Program-made: the position numbers and the translations under genes
From: a virus
Taxonomy: Duplodnaviria > Heunggongvirae > Uroviricota > Caudoviricetes
DNA length: 29,440 nt
IMG/VR virus record: IMGVR_UViG_3300045988_117814
Location: 1-29,440 of that record
Reading direction: 5' to 3' (one strand)
Part shown: piece after piece, positions 4,153 to 29,440 of the stretch
Layout of the letters: each line of letters starts with the position of its first letter
Numbering within the stretch: the first letter of the stretch is position 1
The notes under the pieces: generated by a model
Told to the model about the DNA's origin: nothing
Databases searched by the model: none
The model's input: only the letters and a program-made list of their open reading frames with translations

Positions 4153-4183
4153 GGATAAAACAAAGCCAGCTCATAGGCTGGCT
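4153..4183 (-). terminator. Rho-independent terminator for the minus-strand moron transcript
   Basis: Hairpin AGCCAGC-tcatag-GCTGGCT (4164-4183); read on the - strand it is followed by TTGTTTTATCC, directly downstream of the stop at 4204-4206. Confidence 0.6.
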
Positions 4184-4203: not shown

Positions 4204-4575
4204 TTATTGCTCGCTTAACTTCTGCTTCAGCAAGTAACCTTCGAGCATCCAGATTTTGTTTACAGCATTCTGCCGGGCAATCTTCCGACCAATTTCTGCA
4301 TCAAAATTTTCCGGACTTGCACAGGAACTCTCTCCGGTGACGGTGAAGCCGTTGCGCAGCACCAGGACGCAGAACGTCAGCAGAGAAAGTGATTCGTGCG
4401 GCTGGTAGTTTACCTCTCCGCCAGTATGTTTCGCTTTTATGGCTTTGCCAAAGGCACCATCTTCTGCTGTGAAATATGCCTCCTGAGCAATAATGCCTTC
4501 GATATGGTCTGGCGTAACGCGCGGTGCCGTTTTGCCTTTCTCAACGATTTCTTTTTCGATTTGCTGGTCGTTCAT
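4204..4575 (-). CDS. Hypothetical moron protein of unknown function, 123 aa
   Basis: ATG at 4575 with SD (AAGGTGAGATT-ATG on the - strand); opposite orientation to the surrounding late genes; own terminator; shares its strand with the upstream tRNA. Confidence 0.7.
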   Translation of the reverse strand: MNDQQIEKEIVEKGKTAPRVTPDHIEGIIAQEAYFTAEDGAFGKAIKAKHTGGEVNYQPHESLSLLTFCVLVLRNGFTVTGESSCASPENFDAEIGRKIARQNAVNKIWMLEGYLLKQKLSEQ

Positions 4576-4773
4576 AATCTCACCTTAAAAAAATGCCCTG
4601 CGAACCGGGCGAACTGGAAGCAATGAGTTATGCCTTCCGTGGCTGTACTGATTTACAGCATGAAGTCATCGCAATGGCGTCCTGCTGTAAAAAGAGCGGT
4701 GATAGTCCTTCAAGGGAAACCATCACCGCCAAGCCCCTGGAACTTCTGGCATCACGGTCCTTAGGCGTGATTC

Positions 4774-4850
4774 TGGCGTGGTATGCAGGATTCGAACCTG
4801 CGACCAACCGCTTAGAAGGCGGTTGCTCTGTCCAACTGAGCTAATACCAC
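4774..4850 (-). tRNA. tRNA-Arg (anticodon TCT / UCU, reads AGA)
   Basis: Reverse complement folds by hand into a canonical cloverleaf: 7-bp acceptor stem GTGGTAT/ATACCAC, D-arm GCTC/GAGC, anticodon stem ACCGC/GCGGT with loop CTTCTAA, T-arm GCAGG-TTCGAAT-CCTGC, discriminator G and encoded CCA. Confidence 0.9.
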
Positions 4851-5277
4851 AACGCTGAGAGCACTTAGCCTGTTAAGGCGCCACACTTTGTCGCGGCTCC
4901 ATAAATGCTCTCATCGTTGTACCCTCGTCTCTTCCGAGGCGTCACACCGAATCGCCGGGATGGTGAATCCCCGTGCGCGGAATAAAACCGCTCGACTTGC
5001 ACATTCCGGCTACCTGGTTCGTTTGCTCGAGCAAGGGAGGGTGCCCCTTAAACGTATCCAGACCGCTATCGGCGCATGTGCCATACGCCGTACTGCTCAA
5101 AATAAAAGCTCACTCCACCTGTTCAATTTAACGACAAGCCAGTCAGGTTAATAACCGGAATGAACTCTTTGCTTACCTGAAAGGTAATAATTCGTGCGTT
5201 AAATGTCAACTATCTACGATAAATAAATCATATGTGGTTAAATTGGTAATAATTTAATTGCGTACGGAGTCATTGAT

Positions 5278-5484
5278 ATGTGCATGGGTAGCTCACCATC
5301 AGTGCCTGCAACACCAGAAGTTCAGGCAGCACCACAGGAGCAGGATGCCGCCGTTGTTGATGCCCGCGACGAAGAAACACGTCGCCGTCGCGCTGCTGCT
5401 GGTCGTAGTTCTACGCTGCTTACCGGTTCTCAGGGCGACACATCAACCGCTAATACCAGCGGTAAAACGCTGCTTGGTCAGTAA
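5278..5484 (+). CDS. Small virion-associated protein, T7 gp6.7-like
   Basis: ATG with SD GGAGT; N-terminus MC..., Ser/Thr/Ala-rich with a basic centre, placed immediately before the portal as gp6.7 is in T7-like phages. Confidence 0.5.
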   Translation: MCMGSSPSVPATPEVQAAPQEQDAAVVDARDEETRRRRAAAGRSSTLLTGSQGDTSTANTSGKTLLGQ

Positions 5485-18781: not shown

Positions 18782-21256
18782 ATGAGACAGGAATGTATAC
18801 AAGCGGTTCAGCAGGCGGCGCAGCGCACGTTAACGGCGCGAGAAATACAGAACATTGAAGACCGCATTTATCGAAATATGCGCTCCATTGCTCGTGATGA
18901 CCCGATGTCGTGGAGACAACTTTCCGAATCAGAGCGGCTATATCGAGCAGCACAATTGGCATCTGAAGAATTACAGCGAGAAGCGGCATTAAAGAAACGT
19001 CGTGTGGCTCTCACTATAGCCGCGCGTCAGAGATTGGATAAGTTTATCAATAGCTATCAAGGGGCTGATGGGAAACTTGGCGCTCTTAACCGTACTATTG
19101 CTTTTAATGCAGACGGTAAATCGAACTTCCTCTCTGTTGAGTCCAGAACAAAAGCCACTCGTGATTATGCATTGAGTCAATTGCAGGAGGCATTTGAAGC
19201 AGTAGATCCTCGCTTTTTTGGCCTGTTTGAAGATGAAGCGGGCGTGCGTGATCTGGTATATGAAATGCGAGGGCAAAATACTGGCAATTCTAAAGCAAGA
19301 AAAGGTGCTAAGGCGTGGAGAGAAGTGACAGAGCTACTGCGACGCCGGTTTAATGATGCTGGTGGGGACATTGGCTATCTCGAAAACTGGGGGATCCCTC
19401 AACATCATTCTATGGAAAAGGTTGGGGCGGTATCAAAGGATAAGTGGGTTAGCGATGTTATAGGTAAGCTGGATCGCAAATATTATATCCGAGCCGATGG
19501 ACAACTGATGAACGATGCCGAGTTGTCTGCATTTCTTGGAGAGGCTTATAACACGATCGCTACTGGTGGGCTGAATAAGCTTACTGATACCGGAATGCGA
19601 ATTTCCGGCTCACGTGCTAACCGTGGTAATGCATCACGACAGATACATTTCAAAGATGCAGATTCCTATCTGCAATATCAGCAACTTTATGGCGATCGCT
19701 CTCTATGGGAAATCATGGTCGGTCACTTGGAAGGTATCAGTAAAGATATTGCACTGGTGGAAACATATGGTCCAAACCCCGATCATGTTTTCCGCTCCCT
19801 TCTTGATCAGGTTAAGGCAGAAACGGCAACAGCTAACCCGAGTAAAACCGGTAGCGTCGAGCGTCTGGCGAACAAAACAGAGAACCTGTACAACTTTATT
19901 TCCGGAAAAACACAGCCTGTAGCGAATCCGCACATCGCGCGATGGTCTGACAATATCCGCAACTGGCTGGTTGCCAGCAGGCTCGGATCCGCGTTGCTGT
20001 CATCGTTCTCTGATCTTGGAACCATGTATCTGTCTGCGAAGGTTACCAACCTTCCAATGAACCAGTTATTCCGCAACCAGCTTGAAGCTATGGACCCAAC
20101 GAACCGTACAGAACTTGCGCGGGCGCGCCGCGCTGGTCTGGCGATGGAATCTCTACTTGGCAGCGTTAACCGCTGGGCGATGGATAATATGGGGCCGTCT
20201 GTGTCTCGTTGGGCGGCAACGGCGGTAATGCGTGCCAGTGGGCTTACAGCATGGTCAGATGCGCACAAGCGCGCCTATGGCGTAACCATGATGGGAAGCC
20301 TGGGAGAAGTAGTGTCACGGACACCAGACCTTCGTAGCCTCGATGACTCTGATTTTCGTATCCTGAAAAGCAAAGGGATTACTGACACAGACTGGAGCGT
20401 GTGGAAACTGGCGCAACAGGAGGACTGGGGGAACGGTAATAATACGATGCTGACACCGGAAAGCATTATGCGTATCCCTGATTCAGCAGTTAAACATCTT
20501 GGTGAGCCTGAACGCGTGAAATTTGAGGCAATGCGTAAACTGCTCGGTGCCGTAACTGAAGAAGTTGATATGGCTGTTATTACACCTGGCGCACGTGAGC
20601 AACTGATAACCGGTTCTGGTATTCAGCGTGGGACATGGAAAGGTGAATTAACGAGAAGTGTTTTCCTGTTTAAATCGTTCCCTATCTCGGTGGTTATGCG
20701 TCACTGGTCACGCGCTATGGGTATGCCGTCTGCTGGTGGGCGTGCGGCATATATTGCGACGTTTATTGCCAGTACGACCATTCTTGGCGCTTTGTCGCAG
20801 CAACTTAACGACCTTGCGTCTGGTCGTAATCCTCGCGAGATGACAGGAGAAGATGCTGCTAAATTTTGGCTTGGTGCTCTACTGAAAGGTGGTGGTCTTG
20901 GCCTTTACGGTGACTTTTTATTGTCAGATCACACTAGGTACGGAAGCGGCGCGCTGGCGTCGATGCTTGGCCCGGTAGCTGGTCTGGTTGATGACGTAGT
21001 GAAGATTGCTCAGGGCATACCGTTAAATGCTGTGGAAGGGAAGAATGAGCAGACTGGTGGTGATCTGGTTAAGCTGGGGAAAGGTCTGATGCCAGGTGCG
21101 AATCTCTGGTACTTAAAGGCGGCTCTCGATCACATGATCTTTAACCAGATGCAGGAGTATTTTTCACCAGGTTATTTGCGTAAAATGGAGCAACGTTCGA
21201 AGAAAGAGTTTAACCAGACATACTGGTGGCGACCTCAGGATGTCACTCCGCAATAA
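18782..21256 (+). CDS. Large internal virion / ejection protein
   Basis: 824 aa; SD GAGAGG; last large gene of the same-strand late operon, which ends at the terminator at 21426-21450. Confidence 0.65.
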   Translation: MRQECIQAVQQAAQRTLTAREIQNIEDRIYRNMRSIARDDPMSWRQLSESERLYRAAQLASEELQREAALKKRRVALTIAARQRLDKFINSYQGADGKLGALNRTIAFNADGKSNFLSVESRTKATRDYALSQLQEAFEAVDPRFFGLFEDEAGVRDLVYEMRGQNTGNSKARKGAKAWREVTELLRRRFNDAGGDIGYLENWGIPQHHSMEKVGAVSKDKWVSDVIGKLDRKYYIRADGQLMNDAELSAFLGEAYNTIATGGLNKLTDTGMRISGSRANRGNASRQIHFKDADSYLQYQQLYGDRSLWEIMVGHLEGISKDIALVETYGPNPDHVFRSLLDQVKAETATANPSKTGSVERLANKTENLYNFISGKTQPVANPHIARWSDNIRNWLVASRLGSALLSSFSDLGTMYLSAKVTNLPMNQLFRNQLEAMDPTNRTELARARRAGLAMESLLGSVNRWAMDNMGPSVSRWAATAVMRASGLTAWSDAHKRAYGVTMMGSLGEVVSRTPDLRSLDDSDFRILKSKGITDTDWSVWKLAQQEDWGNGNNTMLTPESIMRIPDSAVKHLGEPERVKFEAMRKLLGAVTEEVDMAVITPGAREQLITGSGIQRGTWKGELTRSVFLFKSFPISVVMRHWSRAMGMPSAGGRAAYIATFIASTTILGALSQQLNDLASGRNPREMTGEDAAKFWLGALLKGGGLGLYGDFLLSDHTRYGSGALASMLGPVAGLVDDVVKIAQGIPLNAVEGKNEQTGGDLVKLGKGLMPGANLWYLKAALDHMIFNQMQEYFSPGYLRKMEQRSKKEFNQTYWWRPQDVTPQ

Positions 21257-21265
21257 GGATGAGAA

Positions 21266-21406
21266 ATGATTGCTTTTATTCTTGTTGTGTTTGCTCTTGT
21301 TGCACTTGGCGTTATGAACCGTAAATGTATCATTGGTGATGGTGAATTTGCTGTTGCAGTTGTTTTGATATTATCTGGTGTAGCAGGGTACATAGGTTTG
21401 TCATAA
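21266..21406 (+). CDS. Small hydrophobic protein, 46 aa (below the ORF-track size cutoff)
   Basis: ATG at 21266 behind AAGGATGAG; translation MIAFILVVFALVALGVMNRKCIIGDGEFAVAVVLILSGVAGYIGLS; TAA at 21404-21406; terminator immediately after. Confidence 0.4.
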   Translation: MIAFILVVFALVALGVMNRKCIIGDGEFAVAVVLILSGVAGYIGLS

Positions 21407-21425
21407 CGTAAGCGTTACATGTCAC

Positions 21426-21450
21426 AGGCCGCTCTTGCGGCCTTTTCTTT
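21426..21450 (+). terminator. Rho-independent terminator ending the structural operon
   Basis: AGGCCGC-tctt-GCGGCCT hairpin followed by TTTCTTT. Confidence 0.65.
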
Positions 21451-21706
21451 ATGTGGTTTGTTTTCGTAATTGTTCGGCACAATAGTCGAGATGTGTTTGC
21501 AGATCCCGCATAGACATCTGTGAGCTGGTGACGTAGTTAATCAGTGCAGTCAGTTCGGCAAGTGGGCCATCGACATTAAATCCATCCTTATCGAGATCCC
21601 GGAGTAATTTCATCAAGTGCGATCCCTCCACCAGTGACCTGACGCCTCCCGGCGTGTGAATCCTTTCGGTAAATCCGTCTTCCAGTGGATAGTGATACTG
21701 CTGCAT
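21449..21706 (-). CDS. LexA-controlled small protein; candidate SOS-inducible antirepressor or regulator
   Basis: First ATG at 21706-21704 behind GGAGAAGATAAG on the - strand (the ORF-track start at 21724 is TTG); a near-consensus LexA box lies 22-37 nt upstream. Confidence 0.6.
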   Translation of the reverse strand: MQQYHYPLEDGFTERIHTPGGVRSLVEGSHLMKLLRDLDKDGFNVDGPLAELTALINYVTSSQMSMRDLQTHLDYCAEQLRKQTT

Positions 21707-21725
21707 CTTATCTTCTCCATGCAAT

Positions 21726-21745
21726 AACTGTATATTTATACAGTA
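21726..21745. promoter_or_regulatory. LexA (SOS) box
   Basis: AACTGTATATTTATACAGTA: CTGT-N8-ACAG with an AT-rich spacer, 18 of 20 matches to the consensus TACTGTATATATATACAGTA. Confidence 0.7.
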
Positions 21746-21901
21746 TCAAATAATTTGTTTGCTATCCAGCACGTTTTGCAAATCACCTGAAAGGTAATAT
21801 CTGTTTGTATTCATGGTCTATCTATCTATATATGGTTTTTCGGGTAATAGAATAATCGGATATGCGGCGCAACGGGTGCTGCGACTATCTGGAGATTTAA
21901 C

Positions 21902-24331
21902 ATGACGGTCTCAACCGAAGTTAACCACAACGAATACACCGGTAACGGCGTTACGACATCATTCCCTTATACCTTTAGGGTTTTCAATAAATCTGATTTA
22001 GTAGTGCAGGTGATTGACCTTGACGAGAATATCACTGTGCTGGATCTTGATACTGATTACACAGTCACTGGTGCGGGAGGGTATAACGGTGGCAATGTAA
22101 TTCTGTCGAAGGCACTGGCTAATGGTTATCAGATTTCCATATTGCGAGAACTATCGGTTACTCAGGAAACAGATCTTAGAAACCAGGGTAAGTTTTTTGC
22201 TGAGGTGCACGAAGACGCGTTTGATAAGCTAACGATGCTGATCCAGCAGGTAAGAAGTTGGTTTTCACTTGCTCTTCGTAAGCCATCTTTTGTGTCGAAT
22301 TATTATGACGCTATTAACAACTACATCAGAAATCTGCGAGACCCTGTGCGCCCACAGGATGCGGCAACTAAAAATTATGTCGATAAACTTGCTAATACAA
22401 ATCTAGGTCGTACTCTTAGAACGCCTGAGCCAATACCAAGTTTGCCTGATGCTGAGAATCGTAAAAACAAAGTGGTAGCGATGGATGACAATGGTAATCC
22501 TATTATGGTCCTTCCACAGTCTGGATCTGCATCCGATGTAATGATTCAGCTAGCAGCAAGTGATGGCTTAAAACTTATTGGCAATTGTGCTTCCATTTCT
22601 AATTTACGCAATATAGAACCAACAAATTTACAGCAAAGAATATATGTATTAGAGCATACTTTAGGCTCTGGTATTGGAGGTGGGTATTTTTATTATGATA
22701 GCACTGATTTAACAACAATTGATGATGATGGAATGATAATTGTGACGCCTGGTGGAAAGCGTTGGAAAAGAATCTGCAATGAAGTGTATGCTGATTATTA
22801 CGGAATTGTTCCTGATGGAGTAACGGATTGTCATGATAAATTGAACAAAGCACTGCAAGCGGCAAAAATGGCAACGGTGAAAGAGCTTATTCTTTCTGAA
22901 GGTACTTACGGGATTAACTCTGCACTGAAAGTACCATCTTACGTTAGATTGTGTGGGGTGGGGAAATTTAAGACCGTTATTCTAGCACTACCAACAATGC
23001 CGATAATTGAAAACTGTATTCAGAACGAGCTTTATGAATACAGGGTATTCAGGACAAACTACGATACTTCTATCCACATAGAAGACTTATGTGTAGATGC
23101 TAACAATCGAGCAAGAAATCCGTCAGAAACATGGATGGATGCCACACAGGGGACTACTATTTTATTTTCTACTGTCAGCCACAGTTCCATCAAAAACGTT
23201 TACTGTAAGCGTGGTTTGCAGCATGGTATAGATATTTGTGCTGGGTATTATTTCGATGATGGGAATATTAATAATAATGCAGTTGGTGGTAGCTATGACA
23301 TTGTTGTTGAAGACACTTTTGTTCAAAACAGTCAACTTGACGATCTCATTACAACGCATAATAGCAGTGATATTGTAATTAACCGCTGCCGAGTATGGAA
23401 CGATGACCCTGATATGGTATGGACAGGGAATCAGCATGGTATTGAAATTGATGAAGGAAGTTATAATGTTACCGTGATGGATTGTTATGCGGATGGGGTA
23501 ATGACTGGATTTCAGCAGAAGGGCCACTCAACAACAATGCCCGCAAGATGTGTTAAATTTTATAGATGTTATGCAAAAAATTGTGTTCATGGATTCCAAA
23601 TTGAGCACATTAATACAGCATCAATACCATCGGGGCGGCATCAAAATGCCAGGTATTCCGTTATAGCAAGTTGTACGGTTGAAAACGCAAACAACTCAAA
23701 ATACACATCAAACCATGCAAGGGTTGTTGAAATTTTAGGGTTCTACGGTATTTATATAAATGAATTAAGGGTTATCGGAGGTGCTGGTAATATATATATT
23801 AGCGGCGGAGCAAGATATATAAACATAGATGGCATTTTTTGGGATGGTGGATACTCAGGAGCTTCCGATACTGATGCCGAGGGATTGGTTCATATAGAAA
23901 CTGATTCAAGCTGTGATGACTACACGATAAATAACTTTATCTGTGAAGATAGCGTAAGTGTTCCATTGATTAGAGATTTGACAGACTCAAGAGTTCAAAG
24001 AGGAATAAGTAATATTAGAGGTTATGGTAAAAACGCAACAATACCAATGATAGCCATTGTCCCAAATGATGATGATAATATATCAAACATATCAACAGCT
24101 GGATCATGGCTTTGTGCTATTAATGATATGGCCAGAGCTCCAGGGACAGGAACATATAGTCAGAATGTTTCTTTTATACATGGTATTTCATTGATAAGCG
24201 GTTCAGGAACTCCTTACGGAGTTATTAATGGTAAGCCAGGAGGATTATATGTTGACAAAAACACAGGATACTTCTATCAATGCACAAGCGCAGGAAGTGG
24301 AGGATGGAAGGGGTTGGTAAGTAATCCTTAA
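21902..24331 (+). CDS. Tailspike (receptor-binding, probable O-antigen depolymerase)
   Basis: 809 aa; N-terminal particle-binding-type domain (EYTGNGVTTSFPYTF...) of the kind seen in many podovirus tailspikes, followed by an AT-rich body with beta-helix-like repeats; last structural gene. Confidence 0.8.
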   Translation: MTVSTEVNHNEYTGNGVTTSFPYTFRVFNKSDLVVQVIDLDENITVLDLDTDYTVTGAGGYNGGNVILSKALANGYQISILRELSVTQETDLRNQGKFFAEVHEDAFDKLTMLIQQVRSWFSLALRKPSFVSNYYDAINNYIRNLRDPVRPQDAATKNYVDKLANTNLGRTLRTPEPIPSLPDAENRKNKVVAMDDNGNPIMVLPQSGSASDVMIQLAASDGLKLIGNCASISNLRNIEPTNLQQRIYVLEHTLGSGIGGGYFYYDSTDLTTIDDDGMIIVTPGGKRWKRICNEVYADYYGIVPDGVTDCHDKLNKALQAAKMATVKELILSEGTYGINSALKVPSYVRLCGVGKFKTVILALPTMPIIENCIQNELYEYRVFRTNYDTSIHIEDLCVDANNRARNPSETWMDATQGTTILFSTVSHSSIKNVYCKRGLQHGIDICAGYYFDDGNINNNAVGGSYDIVVEDTFVQNSQLDDLITTHNSSDIVINRCRVWNDDPDMVWTGNQHGIEIDEGSYNVTVMDCYADGVMTGFQQKGHSTTMPARCVKFYRCYAKNCVHGFQIEHINTASIPSGRHQNARYSVIASCTVENANNSKYTSNHARVVEILGFYGIYINELRVIGGAGNIYISGGARYINIDGIFWDGGYSGASDTDAEGLVHIETDSSCDDYTINNFICEDSVSVPLIRDLTDSRVQRGISNIRGYGKNATIPMIAIVPNDDDNISNISTAGSWLCAINDMARAPGTGTYSQNVSFIHGISLISGSGTPYGVINGKPGGLYVDKNTGYFYQCTSAGSGGWKGLVSNP

Positions 24332-24379: not shown

Positions 24380-25381
24380 TTATTTTAGTTTTCTTAGAAT
24401 ATTTCTGCTTGGCTTTTCTACTAAATGAAATGTTAATATGGAAAACATCAGTGTAGATATAACCATAACAAACACATCATTTATATAACTAACATTTAAC
24501 CATTCAGTTATTGCATTCACTTCAAATATAAAATGCCTTTGTATCATCAGGTGCGTAAGGTAAATTGAAAAAGACAACTCCCCCAAATAATGAATAGGTT
24601 TTGTTGATAGTAACCATCCTGTTATTCCAGTGCTATAATAAAGCGATGATATATATAATCCGGTCAAAATAACAAAAACAATATCCATTCCTTTTGTTAG
24701 TAAACACGCTATTACTAAAGCCGCCAAAATATCTTGAGTATATGCAATAACATTAAATGTGTGTTTGTATTTATCAAATAAAACATAGCAACAACAACCT
24801 ATAGTGAAACCACAAACACCTCTCATTATTGAAGGGATTCCGCTATATATATCAAGTGGCCCGCTACTACCAGGGTTGTCAATTGTTGTAATATAAAACA
24901 ACATTGACATTGATGTGTAAATTATTATGAAACATAACCATTTCTTATCGGTTAATAAGAATATTAGAGGCGGAAATATTAAATACGCAATTAATTCAAC
25001 GCTAACAGACCATGATGCACCAACCATTCCATTATTAAATAAATTTTGCCACATCATAAAATTTATTATGAGATTTTGAGTTGATGGTGGCGATGATTGA
25101 TTTACTTGAATAATTATTGTTAATAATAAAACAAATAAATATAATGGATATATTCTTGAAAATCTATGCCAAATAAATTTTCCAAATTCACTAACAGATA
25201 TTTCTTGTGTGAAATTTTTAGAGTATACCATACACATTATAAATCCGCTTAATACGAAAAAAAGATCTACTGCTAGATATCCGTTCCATAGAAAAGGTAT
25301 TTTTGCGTTTGTAAAGTGATAAAGAACTACGTAAATTGCAGCTATTCCTCTAACACCTGTTAGTGATTTTATTTCTTTCAT
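24380..25381 (-). CDS. oac: Acyltransferase family 3 integral membrane protein; probable O-antigen O-acetyltransferase (lysogenic conversion)
   Basis: 333 aa, multi-pass membrane protein with hallmark motifs SLTGVRGIAAIYVVLYHF and VDLFFVLSGF; very AT-rich; convergent with the tailspike. Confidence 0.8.
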   Translation of the reverse strand: MKEIKSLTGVRGIAAIYVVLYHFTNAKIPFLWNGYLAVDLFFVLSGFIMCMVYSKNFTQEISVSEFGKFIWHRFSRIYPLYLFVLLLTIIIQVNQSSPPSTQNLIINFMMWQNLFNNGMVGASWSVSVELIAYLIFPPLIFLLTDKKWLCFIIIYTSMSMLFYITTIDNPGSSGPLDIYSGIPSIMRGVCGFTIGCCCYVLFDKYKHTFNVIAYTQDILAALVIACLLTKGMDIVFVILTGLYISSLYYSTGITGWLLSTKPIHYLGELSFSIYLTHLMIQRHFIFEVNAITEWLNVSYINDVFVMVISTLMFSILTFHLVEKPSRNILRKLK

Positions 25382-27475: not shown

Positions 27476-27556
27476 CATGGCATTTTTCATGGTACTGATT
27501 TCCGGTGACGGTATATAAAACGGTATGAGAAAAATGAAGTTTTGGAAAAATGTTAT

Positions 27557-27600
27557 CACTCAATTGGTTATGGTTGTCGTAAATAATTGAGTGGGAATGA
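27557..27600. other. Probable attR junction: inverted repeat overlapping a remnant of the guaA 3' end
   Basis: Inverted repeat CACTCAATT-N19-AATTGAGTG (27557-27593); ATT GAG TGG GAA TGA (27586-27600) encodes ...IEWE-stop but is preceded by an in-frame TAA. Confidence 0.4.
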
Positions 27601-27624
27601 TTTGACCCTGCACTATGAATGAAC

Positions 27625-27656
27625 AAAACCCTCTGTTACTACAGAGGGTTTTTTAT
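27625..27656. terminator. Bidirectional rho-independent terminator (chromosomal, between guaA remnant and yfgI)
   Basis: AAAACCCTCTGT-tact-ACAGAGGGTTTT hairpin flanked by an A-run and a T-run. Confidence 0.7.
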
Positions 27657-27692
27657 CTTCAAGAATTATAGGATTGAAGTTACTAACATCGA

Positions 27693-28232
27693 TTAATTAA
27701 ACCAGCTGTCCGATTTGTTCTCTTCTGCTTTGCCCACGCTTTTCATCAGATCGCGACCGCCTTCAGTCATATTTCTGTTGGCGTCAGCTTCAGATTGCAC
27801 CACATCGGTTTGCGCAGCTTTGTGCTTCAGTTCCTGATCGATAAATTCGTTTTCTCGCTTAACGCGGGCTTCTTCTTTCGCCAGCGCCAGTTTTTGTTTC
27901 TGAATCTCTAAGCTGCGTAGCTCATCTTCATAACTTTGATCGCGTTTTTTGTCCGCAGAGGCTTCGGCGTCCAGTTTATCCTGACGAGCTTTCTTATTTG
28001 CCGCTGCCGTTGCCGCTCTTTTGTTAGCGGCGGCCTGGGCATTTGCGCGACGTTGCTTCTCTTGCTGGATTTCCCTGTTGCGCTCCGCGACCCATTCGTC
28101 ATGCTGCCTTTGCTCTTCATTTTTACCTTGCTGTTCCGCTTCTGCGACAGCAGAGAGTTGATCCTGCAATGATGAGGCGATAGCCGGATAGCTTAAGGAG
28201 GCTAAGATGGCGCAAAGAAAAACTTTCTTCAT
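27693..28232 (-). CDS. yfgI: Chromosomal secreted/periplasmic protein, YfgI-like
   Basis: 179 aa; signal peptide (MKKVFLCAILASLSYPAIA) then a charged coiled coil; size and neighbour order match the E. coli yfgG-yfgH-yfgI locus as I recall it. Confidence 0.65.
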   Translation of the reverse strand: MKKVFLCAILASLSYPAIASSLQDQLSAVAEAEQQGKNEEQRQHDEWVAERNREIQQEKQRRANAQAAANKRAATAAANKKARQDKLDAEASADKKRDQSYEDELRSLEIQKQKLALAKEEARVKRENEFIDQELKHKAAQTDVVQSEADANRNMTEGGRDLMKSVGKAEENKSDSWFN

Positions 28233-28247
28233 GACTCCTCCTGATTA

Positions 28248-28766
28248 TTAGCTCTTTTCAGGACATTTGGTATTTGGCTGAATACGCGTTTCGTTATACG
28301 TCGTGGTAATAACAACGGCTAAACCTGTCGTAAACTGGCACTCTTTACCCACCTGGGTAGAGGTATACACTTTGGTGCCTTCCTTATAGGTTAAAGAAAC
28401 ACCTTCCACTAAGGTTTTATCATTCACCATAGAACCCGCTGCCGCGCCTACAGCTCCGCCGCCAACTGCACCTGCCGTCGTTCCGGAATTGCTGCCAGAC
28501 CCGACGTTGTGGCCGATAACACCGCCAGCGACTGCGCCAATAAGCGCGCCGAAGGCTTGTGCGTTCCGTTTATTTTGGGAGTTGTCTACGGCAACTTTTG
28601 CGGGAAGAATGGAAATAATATTAACGGTTTTAGTTTCTTGTTTGGTATTCAGTTGATCGGTTTGATAAACATCGGCGGCATGATCGTCAGCATTTGACTG
28701 GCATCCTGCCAGAGTGAATGACGCTAACATTGCTACAGGCAGAAGACATTTTTTAAATTTCATCAC
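28248..28766 (-). CDS. yfgH: Outer-membrane lipoprotein with a glycine-zipper segment, YfgH-like
   Basis: 172 aa; lipobox LAGC; Gly-rich stretch GALIGAVAGGVIGHNVGSG...GAVGGGAVGAAAG. Confidence 0.7.
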   Translation of the reverse strand: MMKFKKCLLPVAMLASFTLAGCQSNADDHAADVYQTDQLNTKQETKTVNIISILPAKVAVDNSQNKRNAQAFGALIGAVAGGVIGHNVGSGSNSGTTAGAVGGGAVGAAAGSMVNDKTLVEGVSLTYKEGTKVYTSTQVGKECQFTTGLAVVITTTYNETRIQPNTKCPEKS

Positions 28767-29078
28767 TATTCCTTGTTATACACATTACGAAAAATAAGAC
28801 ATTTAAGATCATCAAAAGAGGAAAGTAAATGTATTGCGTATAAAGGGATAGATTAAATTTATTAAAATTCACGCAGGGAATGATTTATAAAAATATATCA
28901 TTACAACATATATATATTAATTTTATATTTATTTCGCAGCCAAACAGGATAAACATCAGTCAGGACAAAGACGTAAAATTTAAGATGAAAGAATATCTGC
29001 CGCTTTGATAATCCCAAAGAGCAAAAGCATCCGACAGCGAAGTGCCGTTATGTTCTGTGAAAGTGGAGAAGGTAACCG

Positions 29079-29270
29079 CTAACGTTGTACCGGTGATTCG
29101 ACGGAGAGTGTGGATTGCTGAGCTTCTTTTTTGCTCTGATGGTGCTGCCAGGCACCGACGGACGAGTAGATAAAACGGCCAAAGAAGAAGATAAAGCTGA
29201 TGAGCAGTACGATACGGGTCATGCGACTGTTAAATCGGTGTCGTTTTCGCATACTGGTTGCCTGACTCAC
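29079..29270 (-). CDS. yfgG: Small membrane protein, YfgG-like
   Basis: 63 aa with a single hydrophobic helix (IVLLISFIFFFGRFIY); GTG start at 29270 (first ATG at 29252). Confidence 0.6.
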   Translation of the reverse strand: MSQATSMRKRHRFNSRMTRIVLLISFIFFFGRFIYSSVGAWQHHQSKKEAQQSTLSVESPVQR

Positions 29271-29440
29271 AAAAGGTTCCTTGAAGTATGTCCCACGCTG
29301 TGGACGGTACTTACATTAAGGCACAACAGGACAAAATGGTCAATTCTTCGTTATGTAAAAAAGCGTCAGTGGATACATATTTTAATGTTATGGAAGTTAA
29401 TTTAATTATTTACAATGATGATGTAATAATGATGAATTAA

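What the first reader, a model, noticed from the sequence alone, without database searches (positions are those of the whole stretch)
4774..4850. Phage-borne tRNA-Arg(UCU) that may serve the AT-rich accessory genes or counter tRNA-targeting defences
A hand fold gives a complete cloverleaf with anticodon UCU, which reads the rare AGA codon (the host equivalent is argU). The tailspike and acyltransferase genes are strongly AT-rich and therefore likely to be enriched in AGA/AGG. Phage tRNAs have also been shown to replace host tRNAs cleaved by anticodon nucleases.
Basis: partly seen in the sequence, partly recalled or inferred. Interest (0 to 1): 0.45.

Follow-up and report, generated by a model that had tools for sequence, protein, structure and literature searches.

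The report
Prophage tRNA-Arg in a counter-defence cassette
The tRNA-Arg(UCU) gene is real but ordinary and already annotated in related phages; what is new is its setting, inside a repressor-controlled early cassette between a widespread, unannotated structured RNA and an anti-CBASS sponge gene.

Summary
A canonical tRNA-Arg(UCU) lies at 4850..4774 on the MINUS strand (Rfam 73.2 bits against a threshold of 29). It sits about 22.7 kb inside a phiV10/epsilon15-type prophage next to host yfgI/guaA, so it is neither host argU nor an attachment-site tRNA. The same tRNA is annotated in O157 typing phages 9 and 10 and occurs in about 500 of 5,426 complete E. coli genomes, so it is already known.

The codon argument holds in counts. 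Prophage genes use AGA about 6 times more than host core genes, and the tailspike and acyltransferase are the extremes. Support from relatives is weak: epsilon15 lacks the tRNA yet carries similar AGA-rich genes, and the equally enriched ATA codon gets no tRNA.

The counter-defence idea has only contextual support. The anticodon loop is identical to argU's.

The context is the new part. The minus-strand unit runs: conserved promoter overlapped by the dispersed repressor operator, then a ~190-nt structured RNA (covariation-supported, no Rfam family), then the tRNA, then a terminator-like hairpin, then an Acb4-family (PF13876) anti-CBASS gene. The RNA family also occurs in phage P1 (between trnI and ban), in N-less lambdoid PL leaders, and in about a third of E. 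coli genomes.

The parts
4774..4850 (-). tRNA-Arg(UCU) gene with encoded CCA
   Evidence: ARAGORN; Rfam RF00005 73.2 bits; pair-preserving variation among 30 copies
4695..4730 (-). 14-bp hairpin followed by CUUUUU: terminator-like element between the tRNA and the next gene
   Evidence: own RNAfold-based scan gives -14.6 kcal/mol; its tail CACCGCTCTTTTTACA recurs downstream of the same RNA element in mEp460
4907..5107 (-). Conserved structured RNA element: hairpin P1, P2 closing a variable hairpin, invariant 19-mer GGUAGCCGGAAUGUGCAAG, variable hairpin, P4 plus pseudoknot, hairpin P5
   Evidence: Covariance model R1 161.8 bits; 97% of cells paired, 12 pairs with changes on both sides, 0/500 shuffles reach the score; minus-strand fold z -3.2 versus -1.9 for the plus strand; no Rfam match
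4851..4906 (-). Linker between the RNA element and the tRNA 5' end; homology with lambdoid phages stops within the first ~6 nt of the tRNA
5173..5209 (-). Inferred early promoter (-35 TTGACA 5209..5204, 17-nt spacer, -10 TACCTT 5186..5181) overlapped by the palindromic operator TTACC-N5-GGTAA (5173-5187)
   Evidence: Read from the sequence; the architecture is conserved in 6 relatives although spacer sequences differ; operator statistics and positions; the epsilon15 record annotates the homologous site as a repressor binding site
4204..4575 (-). Acb4-family (PF13876, 'N4 gp49 / Sf6 gene 66') gene, predicted anti-CBASS cyclic-dinucleotide sponge
   Evidence: Pfam E 4.6e-34; PDB 9e4w Acb4 E 0.0023; PF13876 is defined as the Acb4 family in PMC11722364
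4164..4183 (-). Terminator-like hairpin ending the minus-strand unit, opposite the terminase gene end
   Evidence: annotated as a terminator in phiV10
21902..24331 (+). AT-rich tailspike (GC 0.39; 16 AGA, 6 AGG, 13 CGN, 23 ATA): the main candidate client of the tRNA
24380..25381 (-). AT-rich acyltransferase (GC 0.29; 6 AGA, 1 AGG, 0 CGN, 25 ATA)
   Evidence: PF01757
27480..29440 (.). Host chromosome flank (yfgI, yfgH, yfgG), showing that the window is an integrated prophage
   Evidence: Present in 5426/5426 E. coli genomes; Pfam DUF5384; K-12 map next to guaA

Best explanation
This is a functional, phage-encoded second copy of the AGA-reading tRNA-Arg(UCU). It keeps argU's anticodon loop, D-arm, T-arm and the ArgRS identity nucleotides, so the host should charge and modify it like argU.

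It is transcribed leftward, against the structural genes. The promoter has its -10 inside the phage repressor's operator, so the tRNA should be silent in the lysogen and made early after induction or infection (inferred). The primary transcript would contain a ~190-nt structured leader RNA, then the tRNA, then a hairpin, and, if the hairpin is read through, the Acb4-family gene. RNase P and 3' processing would release the tRNA (inferred).

The effect is to raise the pool of the cell's scarcest Arg isoacceptor during lytic growth. The most likely benefit is faster and more accurate translation of the phage's AGA/AGG-rich genes, above all the horizontally acquired AT-rich tailspike.

Shown: the gene and its conservation, the codon bias, the cassette anatomy and the operator distribution. 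Inferred: expression timing, processing, and the fitness benefit.
For: The tRNA is real and under purifying selection.

It is deep inside the prophage. It sits at the same locus in E. coli, Klebsiella and Salmonella relatives and in ~501 of 5,426 E. coli genomes.

AGA is 7.28/1000 and AGG 4.14/1000 in the prophage, against 1.24 and 0.48 in 40 host core genes. The tailspike has 22 AGR among 35 Arg codons, while the portal and major head genes have 0-1.

The tRNA+ E. coli phages have higher AGA (6.9-7.3) than tRNA- epsilon15 (4.4).

tRNA-Arg(UCU) is a recurrent cargo of temperate coliphages, for example 933W argO and phiP27.

The promoter/operator architecture is conserved in six relatives. The operator occurs 14 times in phiV10 (0.66 expected), including both sides of the repressor gene.
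Against: epsilon15, Tyrion and PAT1 lack the tRNA. epsilon15 still carries AGA-rich AT-rich conversion genes, and tRNA+ SPN1S has only 5.05 AGA/1000. The tRNA is therefore dispensable and its correlation with codon use is weak (n = 4).

ATA is as over-represented as AGA (12.2 versus 2.1/1000) but no tRNA-Ile is supplied.

Core structural genes avoid AGR entirely.

Repressor control means the acyltransferase, which would act in the lysogen, would not benefit.

There are no expression or phenotype data.
Confidence: 0.5

Rival explanations
1. Counter-defence tRNA. The extra tRNA-Arg(UCU) is part of an early anti-defence cassette. It keeps AGA decoding alive when a host tRNA-cleaving system depletes host tRNA-Arg, either by sheer resupply or because its different anticodon stem or acceptor stem escapes recognition.
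For: The next gene in the same unit is Acb4-family (anti-CBASS). The Klebsiella relative has a Tad2-like (anti-Thoeris) gene in that slot, and a P1-like subgroup has a Tad2-like gene right after the same leader RNA. The promoter is early and repressor-controlled. Three of the five anticodon-stem pairs and five of the seven acceptor-stem pairs differ from argU. At least one defence system (retron Eco2) cuts tRNA-Arg among other tRNAs. From my own knowledge: colicin D cleaves tRNA-Arg, and T5 tRNA-Lys neutralises PARIS.
Against: The anticodon loop CUUCUAA is identical to argU's, unlike the loop-variant escape tRNAs described elsewhere. I did not find any defence system specific for tRNA-Arg(UCU). 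Co-location with anti-defence genes is association, not evidence of function.
Confidence: 0.25
2. RNA-processing punctuation. The tRNA mainly serves as an RNase P / 3'-processing handle that gives the adjacent structured RNA, or the downstream mRNA, a defined end. Decoding is secondary.
For: The same RNA element abuts a same-strand tRNA in two unrelated phage types. tRNA-Arg lies 57 nt after the element's modelled 3' end in phiV10-type phages (30 copies). tRNA-Ile(CAU) ends 15 nt before its first hairpin in P1-type phages (17 copies).
Against: 87 of 134 copies of the element have no tRNA nearby. The tRNA retains every feature of a decoding tRNA, including an invariant anticodon arm. The two phage types carry tRNAs for two different rare codons (AGA, AUA), which fits codon supply better.
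Confidence: 0.1
3. Host-derived relic or attachment-site tRNA with no function for the phage.
For: Many prophages integrate next to tRNA genes, and DLP12 sits at argU in K-12.
Against: The tRNA is 22.7 kb from the prophage end, which abuts yfgI/guaA (attB at guaA for the relative ZX5). It differs from argU at 15 of 77 positions, with stem changes that keep pairing. It is conserved at the same internal locus across three host genera with only pair-preserving changes.
Confidence: 0.03

Closest known systems
tRNA-Arg(UCU) of phiV10-like phages (O157 typing phages 9/10, vB_EcoP_ZX5, phiv142-3) and PGAP-annotated prophage tRNA-Arg in E. coli genomes
   Same: Same gene at the same locus. The surrounding 1.1 kb is 96-99% identical and the tRNA is 97% identical to phiV10's.
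   Different: The window's copy has U5-A68 where the others have C5-G68. The phiV10 RefSeq record itself does not annotate the tRNA and places a hypothetical CDS (PhiV10p04) over it. None of the papers read here reports a functional study of it; the ZX5 paper only notes 'one tRNA'.
E. coli argU (host tRNA-Arg UCU)
   Same: Identical anticodon loop, D-arm (except position 20a), T-arm, A20, G73 and CCA; 62/77 identical.
   Different: The acceptor stem (5 of 7 pairs), the anticodon stem (3 of 5 pairs) and the variable loop differ; the gene is carried by the phage.
argO of Stx phage 933W (ileZ-argN-argO)
   Same: A temperate-coliphage tRNA reading AGA, co-located with AT-rich accessory genes.
   Different: Only ~79% identical. 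In 933W it lies in the late region under Q and its own promoter, together with a tRNA-Ile for AUA. Here it is a single tRNA in an early, repressor-controlled leftward cassette.
HK022 put RNAs (processive antiterminator RNAs), as the closest functional analogue for the upstream element
   Same: A cis-encoded structured RNA just downstream of a repressor-controlled early promoter in lambdoid phages that lack an N gene, followed by terminator-like hairpins.
   Different: About 190 nt with five helices and a pseudoknot, versus ~70 nt with two stem-loops. The covariance model finds nothing in HK022. There is one copy per genome, not a putL/putR pair.
Acb4 anti-CBASS sponge family (PF13876)
   Same: The gene after the tRNA matches PF13876 at E 4.6e-34. 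The family was defined from SPO1 Acb4, and 8 of 8 tested homologues bind 3'3'-cGAMP.
   Different: This homologue has not been tested. Direct similarity to SPO1 Acb4 is marginal (E 0.0023).

Membership tests
tRNA (Rfam RF00005), Arg isoacceptor UCU | Cloverleaf scoring above the curated covariance-model threshold | tested here: met
   73.2 bits versus gathering 29, full-length match; ARAGORN agrees
tRNA (Rfam RF00005), Arg isoacceptor UCU | Anticodon UCU plus the E. coli ArgRS identity nucleotides (A20, C35, U36; identity set taken from my own knowledge) | tested here: met
   Read from the alignment with argU: the D-loop A20 and the loop C32-U33-U34-C35-U36-A37-A38 are identical
tRNA (Rfam RF00005), Arg isoacceptor UCU | Expressed, processed and aminoacylated in vivo | not testable with these tools
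   Only indirect evidence: pair-preserving substitutions and invariant functional arms in 30 copies
Codon-compensating phage tRNA | The cognate codon is over-represented in phage genes relative to the host | tested here: met
   AGA 7.28 versus 1.24 per 1000, odds ratio 5.9, p ~1e-13
Codon-compensating phage tRNA | Presence of the tRNA tracks codon usage among close relatives | tested here: inconclusive
   tRNA+ window 7.28, phiV10 6.92, SPN1S 5.05; tRNA- epsilon15 4.38. The direction fits, but there are only four genomes and the ranges nearly touch.
Counter-defence (nuclease-escape) phage tRNA | The anticodon loop differs from the host isoacceptor so that the nuclease no longer cuts | tested here: not met
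   Loop CUUCUAA is identical to argU's
Counter-defence (nuclease-escape) phage tRNA | Rescues infection in the presence of a tRNA-cleaving defence system | not testable with these tools
   Context only: Acb4-family or Tad2-like genes lie in the same cassette
HK022 put antiterminator RNA (for the upstream element) | Sequence/structure homology to putL/putR (~70 nt, two stem-loops) | tested here: not met
   Model R1 finds nothing in HK022; the element has ~190 nt and five helices
HK022 put antiterminator RNA (for the upstream element) | Promotes read-through of downstream terminators | not testable with these tools
   Compatible anatomy only: a terminator-like hairpin downstream on the sense strand in 72/94 copies versus 27/94 on the antisense strand
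Any Rfam 15 family (for the upstream element) | Match to a curated covariance model | tested here: not met
   No hit over the element at E<=10 in the window, nor at E<=5 in the P1, cdtI and SPN1S versions
Acb4 anti-CBASS sponge (PF13876), for ORF 4575..4204 | PF13876 domain above the gathering score | tested here: met
   117.2 bits versus 27, E 4.6e-34
Acb4 anti-CBASS sponge (PF13876), for ORF 4575..4204 | Tetrameric assembly that binds 3'3'-cGAMP | not tested
   Shown for SPO1 Acb4 and eight homologues in PMC11722364, not for this protein

The most novel reading that the evidence does not exclude
The ~190-nt element immediately upstream of the tRNA (window 5107..4907, minus strand) is an undescribed class of structured phage RNA. 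It heads repressor-controlled early operons in three unrelated groups of enterobacterial temperate phages: epsilon15/phiV10-like phages, N-less lambdoid PL leaders, and P1 between trnI and ban.

It would act in cis as a processive antiterminator or anti-Rho device. That would let RNA polymerase traverse long untranslated stretches (tRNAs, hairpins) to reach early accessory and counter-defence genes such as acb4 and tad2-like. The tRNA would be a cargo or processing partner of this module. Alternatively, the RNA could itself be a trans-acting early or counter-defence RNA.
Probability: 0.35. Interest if true: 0.8.

Novelty: already known. Interest (0 to 1): 0.4.

Why it matters
The tRNA by itself adds little. 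Phage-borne tRNA-Arg(UCU) is common, and this one is already annotated in relatives.

Two things make the locus worth a follow-up.

First, it gives a clean natural system for separating the two standing explanations for phage tRNAs, codon supply and defence evasion. It is a single tRNA in a small early cassette next to a known anti-CBASS family gene, and close relatives lack the tRNA.

Second, the leader RNA is a strongly conserved structured RNA supported by covariation. It is present in about a third of complete E. coli genomes and in the textbook phage P1, and it matches no Rfam family. If it is an antitermination device, it would explain how N-less lambdoid phages (cdtI, mEp460, SfV-like) drive their early-left operons, and how phages express untranslated cargo such as tRNAs.

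Tried and rejected
1. Host argU or an att-site tRNA. Rejected: 15 of 77 differences from argU, 22.7 kb from the prophage end, host flank identified.

2. The leader region as protein-coding. Only short, unconserved ORFs are present. The CDSs annotated over it in phiV10 (p04) and mEp460 (037) lie on the opposite strand. The substitution pattern is compensatory base-pairing with G.U pairs on the minus strand.

3. Homology of the leader to HK022 put. No covariance-model hit in HK022.

4. A second, putR-like copy. There is one copy in mEp460 and one in the window.

5. A copy in K-12 CPS-53 upstream of yfdP. None found.

6. boxA following the element. Only modest enrichment (39/104 versus 16 upstream and 12 antisense), mostly from one subfamily. 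Not used as evidence.

7. Any Rfam family at permissive thresholds. None.

8. Literature. String searches for the invariant 19-mer found 0 papers. A search on processive antitermination and prophages found nothing relevant. The P1 genome paper is not held in the library, and the search for the SPC32H repressor-operator work did not return that study. The operator assignment therefore rests on the epsilon15 record's annotation and on site statistics.

9. A genome-wide scan with a 17-base anchor returned mostly chance hits from unrelated phyla. Only 15 of the 120 loci were confirmed by the model, all of them Enterobacteriaceae.

10. A sigma-70 promoter directly upstream of the tRNA or of the acb4-family gene. 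None passed the consensus scan.

Full report
**1. The observation.**
ARAGORN finds a single tRNA in the 29.4-kb window: tRNA-Arg with anticodon tct at 4774-4850 on the minus strand. The Rfam tRNA model matches it end to end at 73.2 bits (gathering score 29, E 1.9e-14).

**2. What the window is.**
The 1.1 kb around the tRNA is 96% identical to phage phiV10 and to O157 typing phages 9 and 10. It is 95-99% identical to other Uetakevirus (epsilon15-like) phages. Positions 27480-29440 are core E. coli chromosome (yfgI-yfgH-yfgG, next to guaA) and occur in all 5,426 complete genomes. The relative ZX5 integrates at the 3' end of guaA.

The window is therefore an integrated prophage, and the tRNA lies about 22.7 kb inside it. 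It is not host argU: 62 of 77 positions are identical.

**3. Is it a working tRNA?**
Compared with argU, the anticodon loop (CUUCUAA), the D-arm including A20, the T-arm, G73 and the encoded CCA are the same. The acceptor stem, anticodon stem and variable loop differ. Among 30 copies linked to the same upstream element there are nine variants. All changes keep base pairs or fall in the D-loop, variable loop or discriminator, and the anticodon arm is invariant. The window differs from phiV10 by a compensatory U5-A68 / C5-G68 exchange. This is the signature of a functional gene.

**4. How known is it?**
- The tRNA is annotated in typing phages 9 and 10 and in phiv142-3.
- It is mentioned as 'one tRNA' for ZX5.
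- PGAP annotates it in E. coli genomes, and 501 of 5,426 genomes hold the whole leader+tRNA unit.
- The phiV10 reference record misses it and has a hypothetical CDS across it.
- It is present at the same locus in Klebsiella phage ST512-KPC3phi13.3 and Salmonella phage SPN1S. It is absent from epsilon15, Tyrion and PAT1.
- I found no functional study of it.

**5. The codon hypothesis.**
Codon usage, using annotated or homologous gene sets (per 1000 codons):

| Genome | tRNA | AGA | AGG |
|---|---|---|---|
| This prophage | + | 7.28 | 4.14 |
| 40 K-12 core genes around guaA | host | 1.24 | 0.48 |
| phiV10 | + | 6.92 | 4.50 |
| SPN1S | + | 5.05 | 3.94 |
| epsilon15 | - | 4.38 | 4.06 |

For AGA, prophage versus host gives an odds ratio of 5.9 and p ~1e-13.

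- The tailspike (GC 0.39) has 16 AGA + 6 AGG against 13 CGN.
- The acyltransferase (GC 0.29) has 6 AGA + 1 AGG and no CGN.
- The portal and major head genes have 0-1 AGR codons.

Three points weaken it:
- epsilon15 has no tRNA, yet its AT-rich conversion gene gp21 has 7 AGA + 3 AGG among 12 Arg codons.
- SPN1S has the tRNA at only 5.05/1000.
- ATA is enriched as strongly as AGA (12.2 versus 2.1/1000) without a phage tRNA-Ile.

**6. The transcription unit.**
On the minus strand the order is as follows.

*Promoter and operator.* There is a perfect -35 TTGACA (5209..5204), a 17-nt spacer, and TACCTT (5186..5181) embedded in the palindrome TTACC-N5-GGTAA (5173-5187). This architecture is conserved in six relatives from four host genera even though the spacers differ.

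The palindrome occurs 14 times in phiV10 against 0.66 expected. It sits on both sides of the repressor gene and ahead of most transcription units. The epsilon15 record annotates the homologous sites as repressor binding sites. I infer that the unit is repressed in the lysogen and fires on induction. This is an inference, not a measurement.

*Downstream of the promoter.* A ~320-nt ORF-free leader follows, then the tRNA. Next comes a 14-bp hairpin plus CUUUUU at 4730..4695. Then comes ORF 4575..4204, for which the scan found no sigma-70 promoter of its own. A terminator at 4183..4164 ends the unit.

**7. The protein gene.**
ORF 4575..4204 matches PF13876 at E 4.6e-34. It has a marginal direct match to PDB 9e4w, 'anti-CBASS 4 (Acb4)'. 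The paper that describes Acb4 defines PF13876 as the Acb4 family of viral sponges. All eight homologues it tested bound 3'3'-cGAMP.

In the Klebsiella relative the gene after the tRNA is Tad2-like (PF11195, E 4e-26). A P1-like subgroup has a Tad2-like gene directly after the same leader RNA. The slot between terminase and portal is therefore a counter-defence slot. Against it, the anticodon loop is identical to argU's. tRNA-cleaving defences that hit tRNA-Arg do exist, for example retron Eco2.

**8.

*Distribution.*
- The 240 nt next to the tRNA are ~82% identical to a stretch just downstream of the cI-type repressor gene in the lambdoid phages cdtI and mEp460, Stx2c/Stx2k phages and others. 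The orientation is the same as cI, and there is no tRNA there.
- In mEp460 the order is cI stop, terminator, promoter, element, hairpin, yfdP, and no N gene is annotated.
- The same core lies between trnI and ban in phage P1 and P1-like plasmids. It is unannotated in P1's 535-feature record.

*Collection and tRNA linkage.* An exact-match scan of viral contigs with the invariant 19-mer returned at least 120 loci. Of 134 copies:
- 30 have a same-strand tRNA-Arg(UCU) downstream;
- 17 have a same-strand tRNA(CAU) upstream;
- 87 have no tRNA nearby.

*Structure.* On 47 representatives below 93% identity (alignment A2) I tested a structure of four helices plus a pseudoknot.
- 97% of cells form standard pairs, against 28-55% when the 3' partners are slid.
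- 12 pairs show changes on both sides, for example 26 A-U versus 21 G-C at one P1 pair.
- 0 of 500 shuffles reach the covariation score.
- A mutually exclusive long-range pairing of two invariant hexamers (GCACAU/AUGUGC) is also fully compatible. It is uninformative because neither side varies.
- The minus-strand RNA folds better than shuffles (z -3.2), while the plus strand reaches only -1.9.

*Wider searches.*
- Covariance model R1 finds one copy per phage genome, a truncated remnant in epsilon15, and nothing in HK022 or K-12 CPS-53.
- A scan of representative genomes with an independent anchor gave 15 model-confirmed copies, all in Enterobacteriaceae. The 19-mer is exact in 13 of them.
- The family occurs in 1,834 of 5,426 E. 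coli genomes. None of the listed matches carries an annotation for the element; one lists only the adjacent tRNA-Arg.
- No Rfam 15 family matches any version.
- I found no paper that holds the sequence.

*Context of the copies.*
- The genes that follow are diverse: YfdP-like, Ban, Acb4-family, Tad2-like, RdgC and unknowns. They usually start 330-730 nt past the 19-mer.
- A terminator-like hairpin lies downstream on the sense strand in 72 of 94 copies, against 27 of 94 on the antisense strand.
- This anatomy fits a generic cis-acting device at the head of early operons with long untranslated stretches. Processive antitermination or Rho evasion is my leading guess. The anatomy fits equally well a discrete early non-coding RNA that ends at the hairpin. 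The element is not a put homologue.

**9. Mechanism and verdict.**
Most likely (about 0.5), the tRNA is a functional extra AGA decoder made early in lytic growth. Its benefit would be the translation of AGA/AGG-rich phage genes, chiefly the tailspike. The counter-defence reading (about 0.25) uses the same molecular act, extra tRNA-Arg(UCU), in a different selective setting, and the cassette context makes it plausible. A role as processing punctuation for the neighbouring RNA is a minor possibility (about 0.1).

The tRNA itself is already known and ordinary. The cassette anatomy, and especially the unannotated structured RNA, are what deserve follow-up.

**Caveats.**
- The copies of the RNA are related, so shuffle controls overstate significance. 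The slid-partner control and the number of independent pair types are the sounder measures.
- E-values from model R1 are rough.
- The viral-contig collection was anchored on the 19-mer. Its invariance is supported independently only by the 15 genome copies.
- Promoter, operator and processing assignments are inferences from sequence.

Noticed in passing
window 4907-5107 (minus strand); also L138 1284-1490 (phage P1), L139 31167-31366 (mEp460): A ~190-nt structured RNA family, supported by covariation and including a pseudoknot and an invariant 19-mer. It has no Rfam match. It occurs in epsilon15-like phages, in N-less lambdoid PL leaders and in P1 between trnI and ban, and in 1,834 of 5,426 E. 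coli genomes with no annotation for it in the listed matches.
   Followed up: yes
window 4204-4575 (minus strand); L009 635-1156: The slot between terminase and portal holds counter-defence genes. Here and in phiV10/epsilon15 it is an Acb4-family (PF13876) gene. In Klebsiella phage ST512-KPC3phi13.3 it is Tad2-like (PF11195). SPN1S, PAT1 and Tyrion carry unrelated small ORFs there, which may be untested anti-defence candidates.
   Followed up: partly
window 5173-5187, 21783-21797, 2013-2027, 2031-2045; phiV10 L141, 14 sites: The palindrome TTACC-N5-GGTAA is dispersed in front of most transcription units (14 sites in phiV10 versus 0.66 expected), in the manner of P1's scattered C1 operators. 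This suggests direct repressor control of nearly all promoters in this phage group, including the structural-gene and tailspike promoters.
   Followed up: partly
window 5140-5290 and 21750-21905: The regions upstream of the portal operon and of the tailspike gene share a motif pair (ACCTGAAAGGTAATA ... TGGTT-N5-GGTAATA) with similar spacing. This may be a common rightward promoter/regulator layout.
   Followed up: no
L002/L141 2672-2923 (PhiV10p04); L139 31040-31408 (mEp460_037): These annotated 'hypothetical protein' CDSs lie antisense over the tRNA (phiV10) and over the structured RNA (mEp460). They are probably annotation artefacts. The phiV10 reference record lacks the tRNA feature.
   Followed up: partly
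L004 1445-1551 (epsilon15 2632-2738): epsilon15 retains only a truncated remnant of the RNA element (48.5 bits) and has no tRNA. The 'RNaseIII' site annotated in the record (2720-2819) overlaps the 5' part of this remnant.
   Followed up: partly
window 4695-4730 versus L139 about 30925-30975: The hairpin after the tRNA ends in CACCGCTCTTTTTACA. Nearly the same tail (TACCGCTCTTTTTACA) follows a different hairpin downstream of the element in mEp460. It resembles boxA, but across all copies boxA-like strings are only weakly enriched.
   Followed up: partly
window 21256-21902 versus phiV10 19345-20996: The window lacks phiV10's p22/p23 (Bro-N antirepressor-like) genes. It carries a different, shorter tailspike (809 versus 875 aa) and a different acyltransferase allele, which suggests a different O-antigen specificity from phiV10.
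   Followed up: no
L138 357-476 (P1, between upl and tciA): A sub-threshold match to the Rfam sRNA family STnc100 (33.4 bits, gathering 47) at the head of the P1 tciA-ban operon.
   Followed up: no
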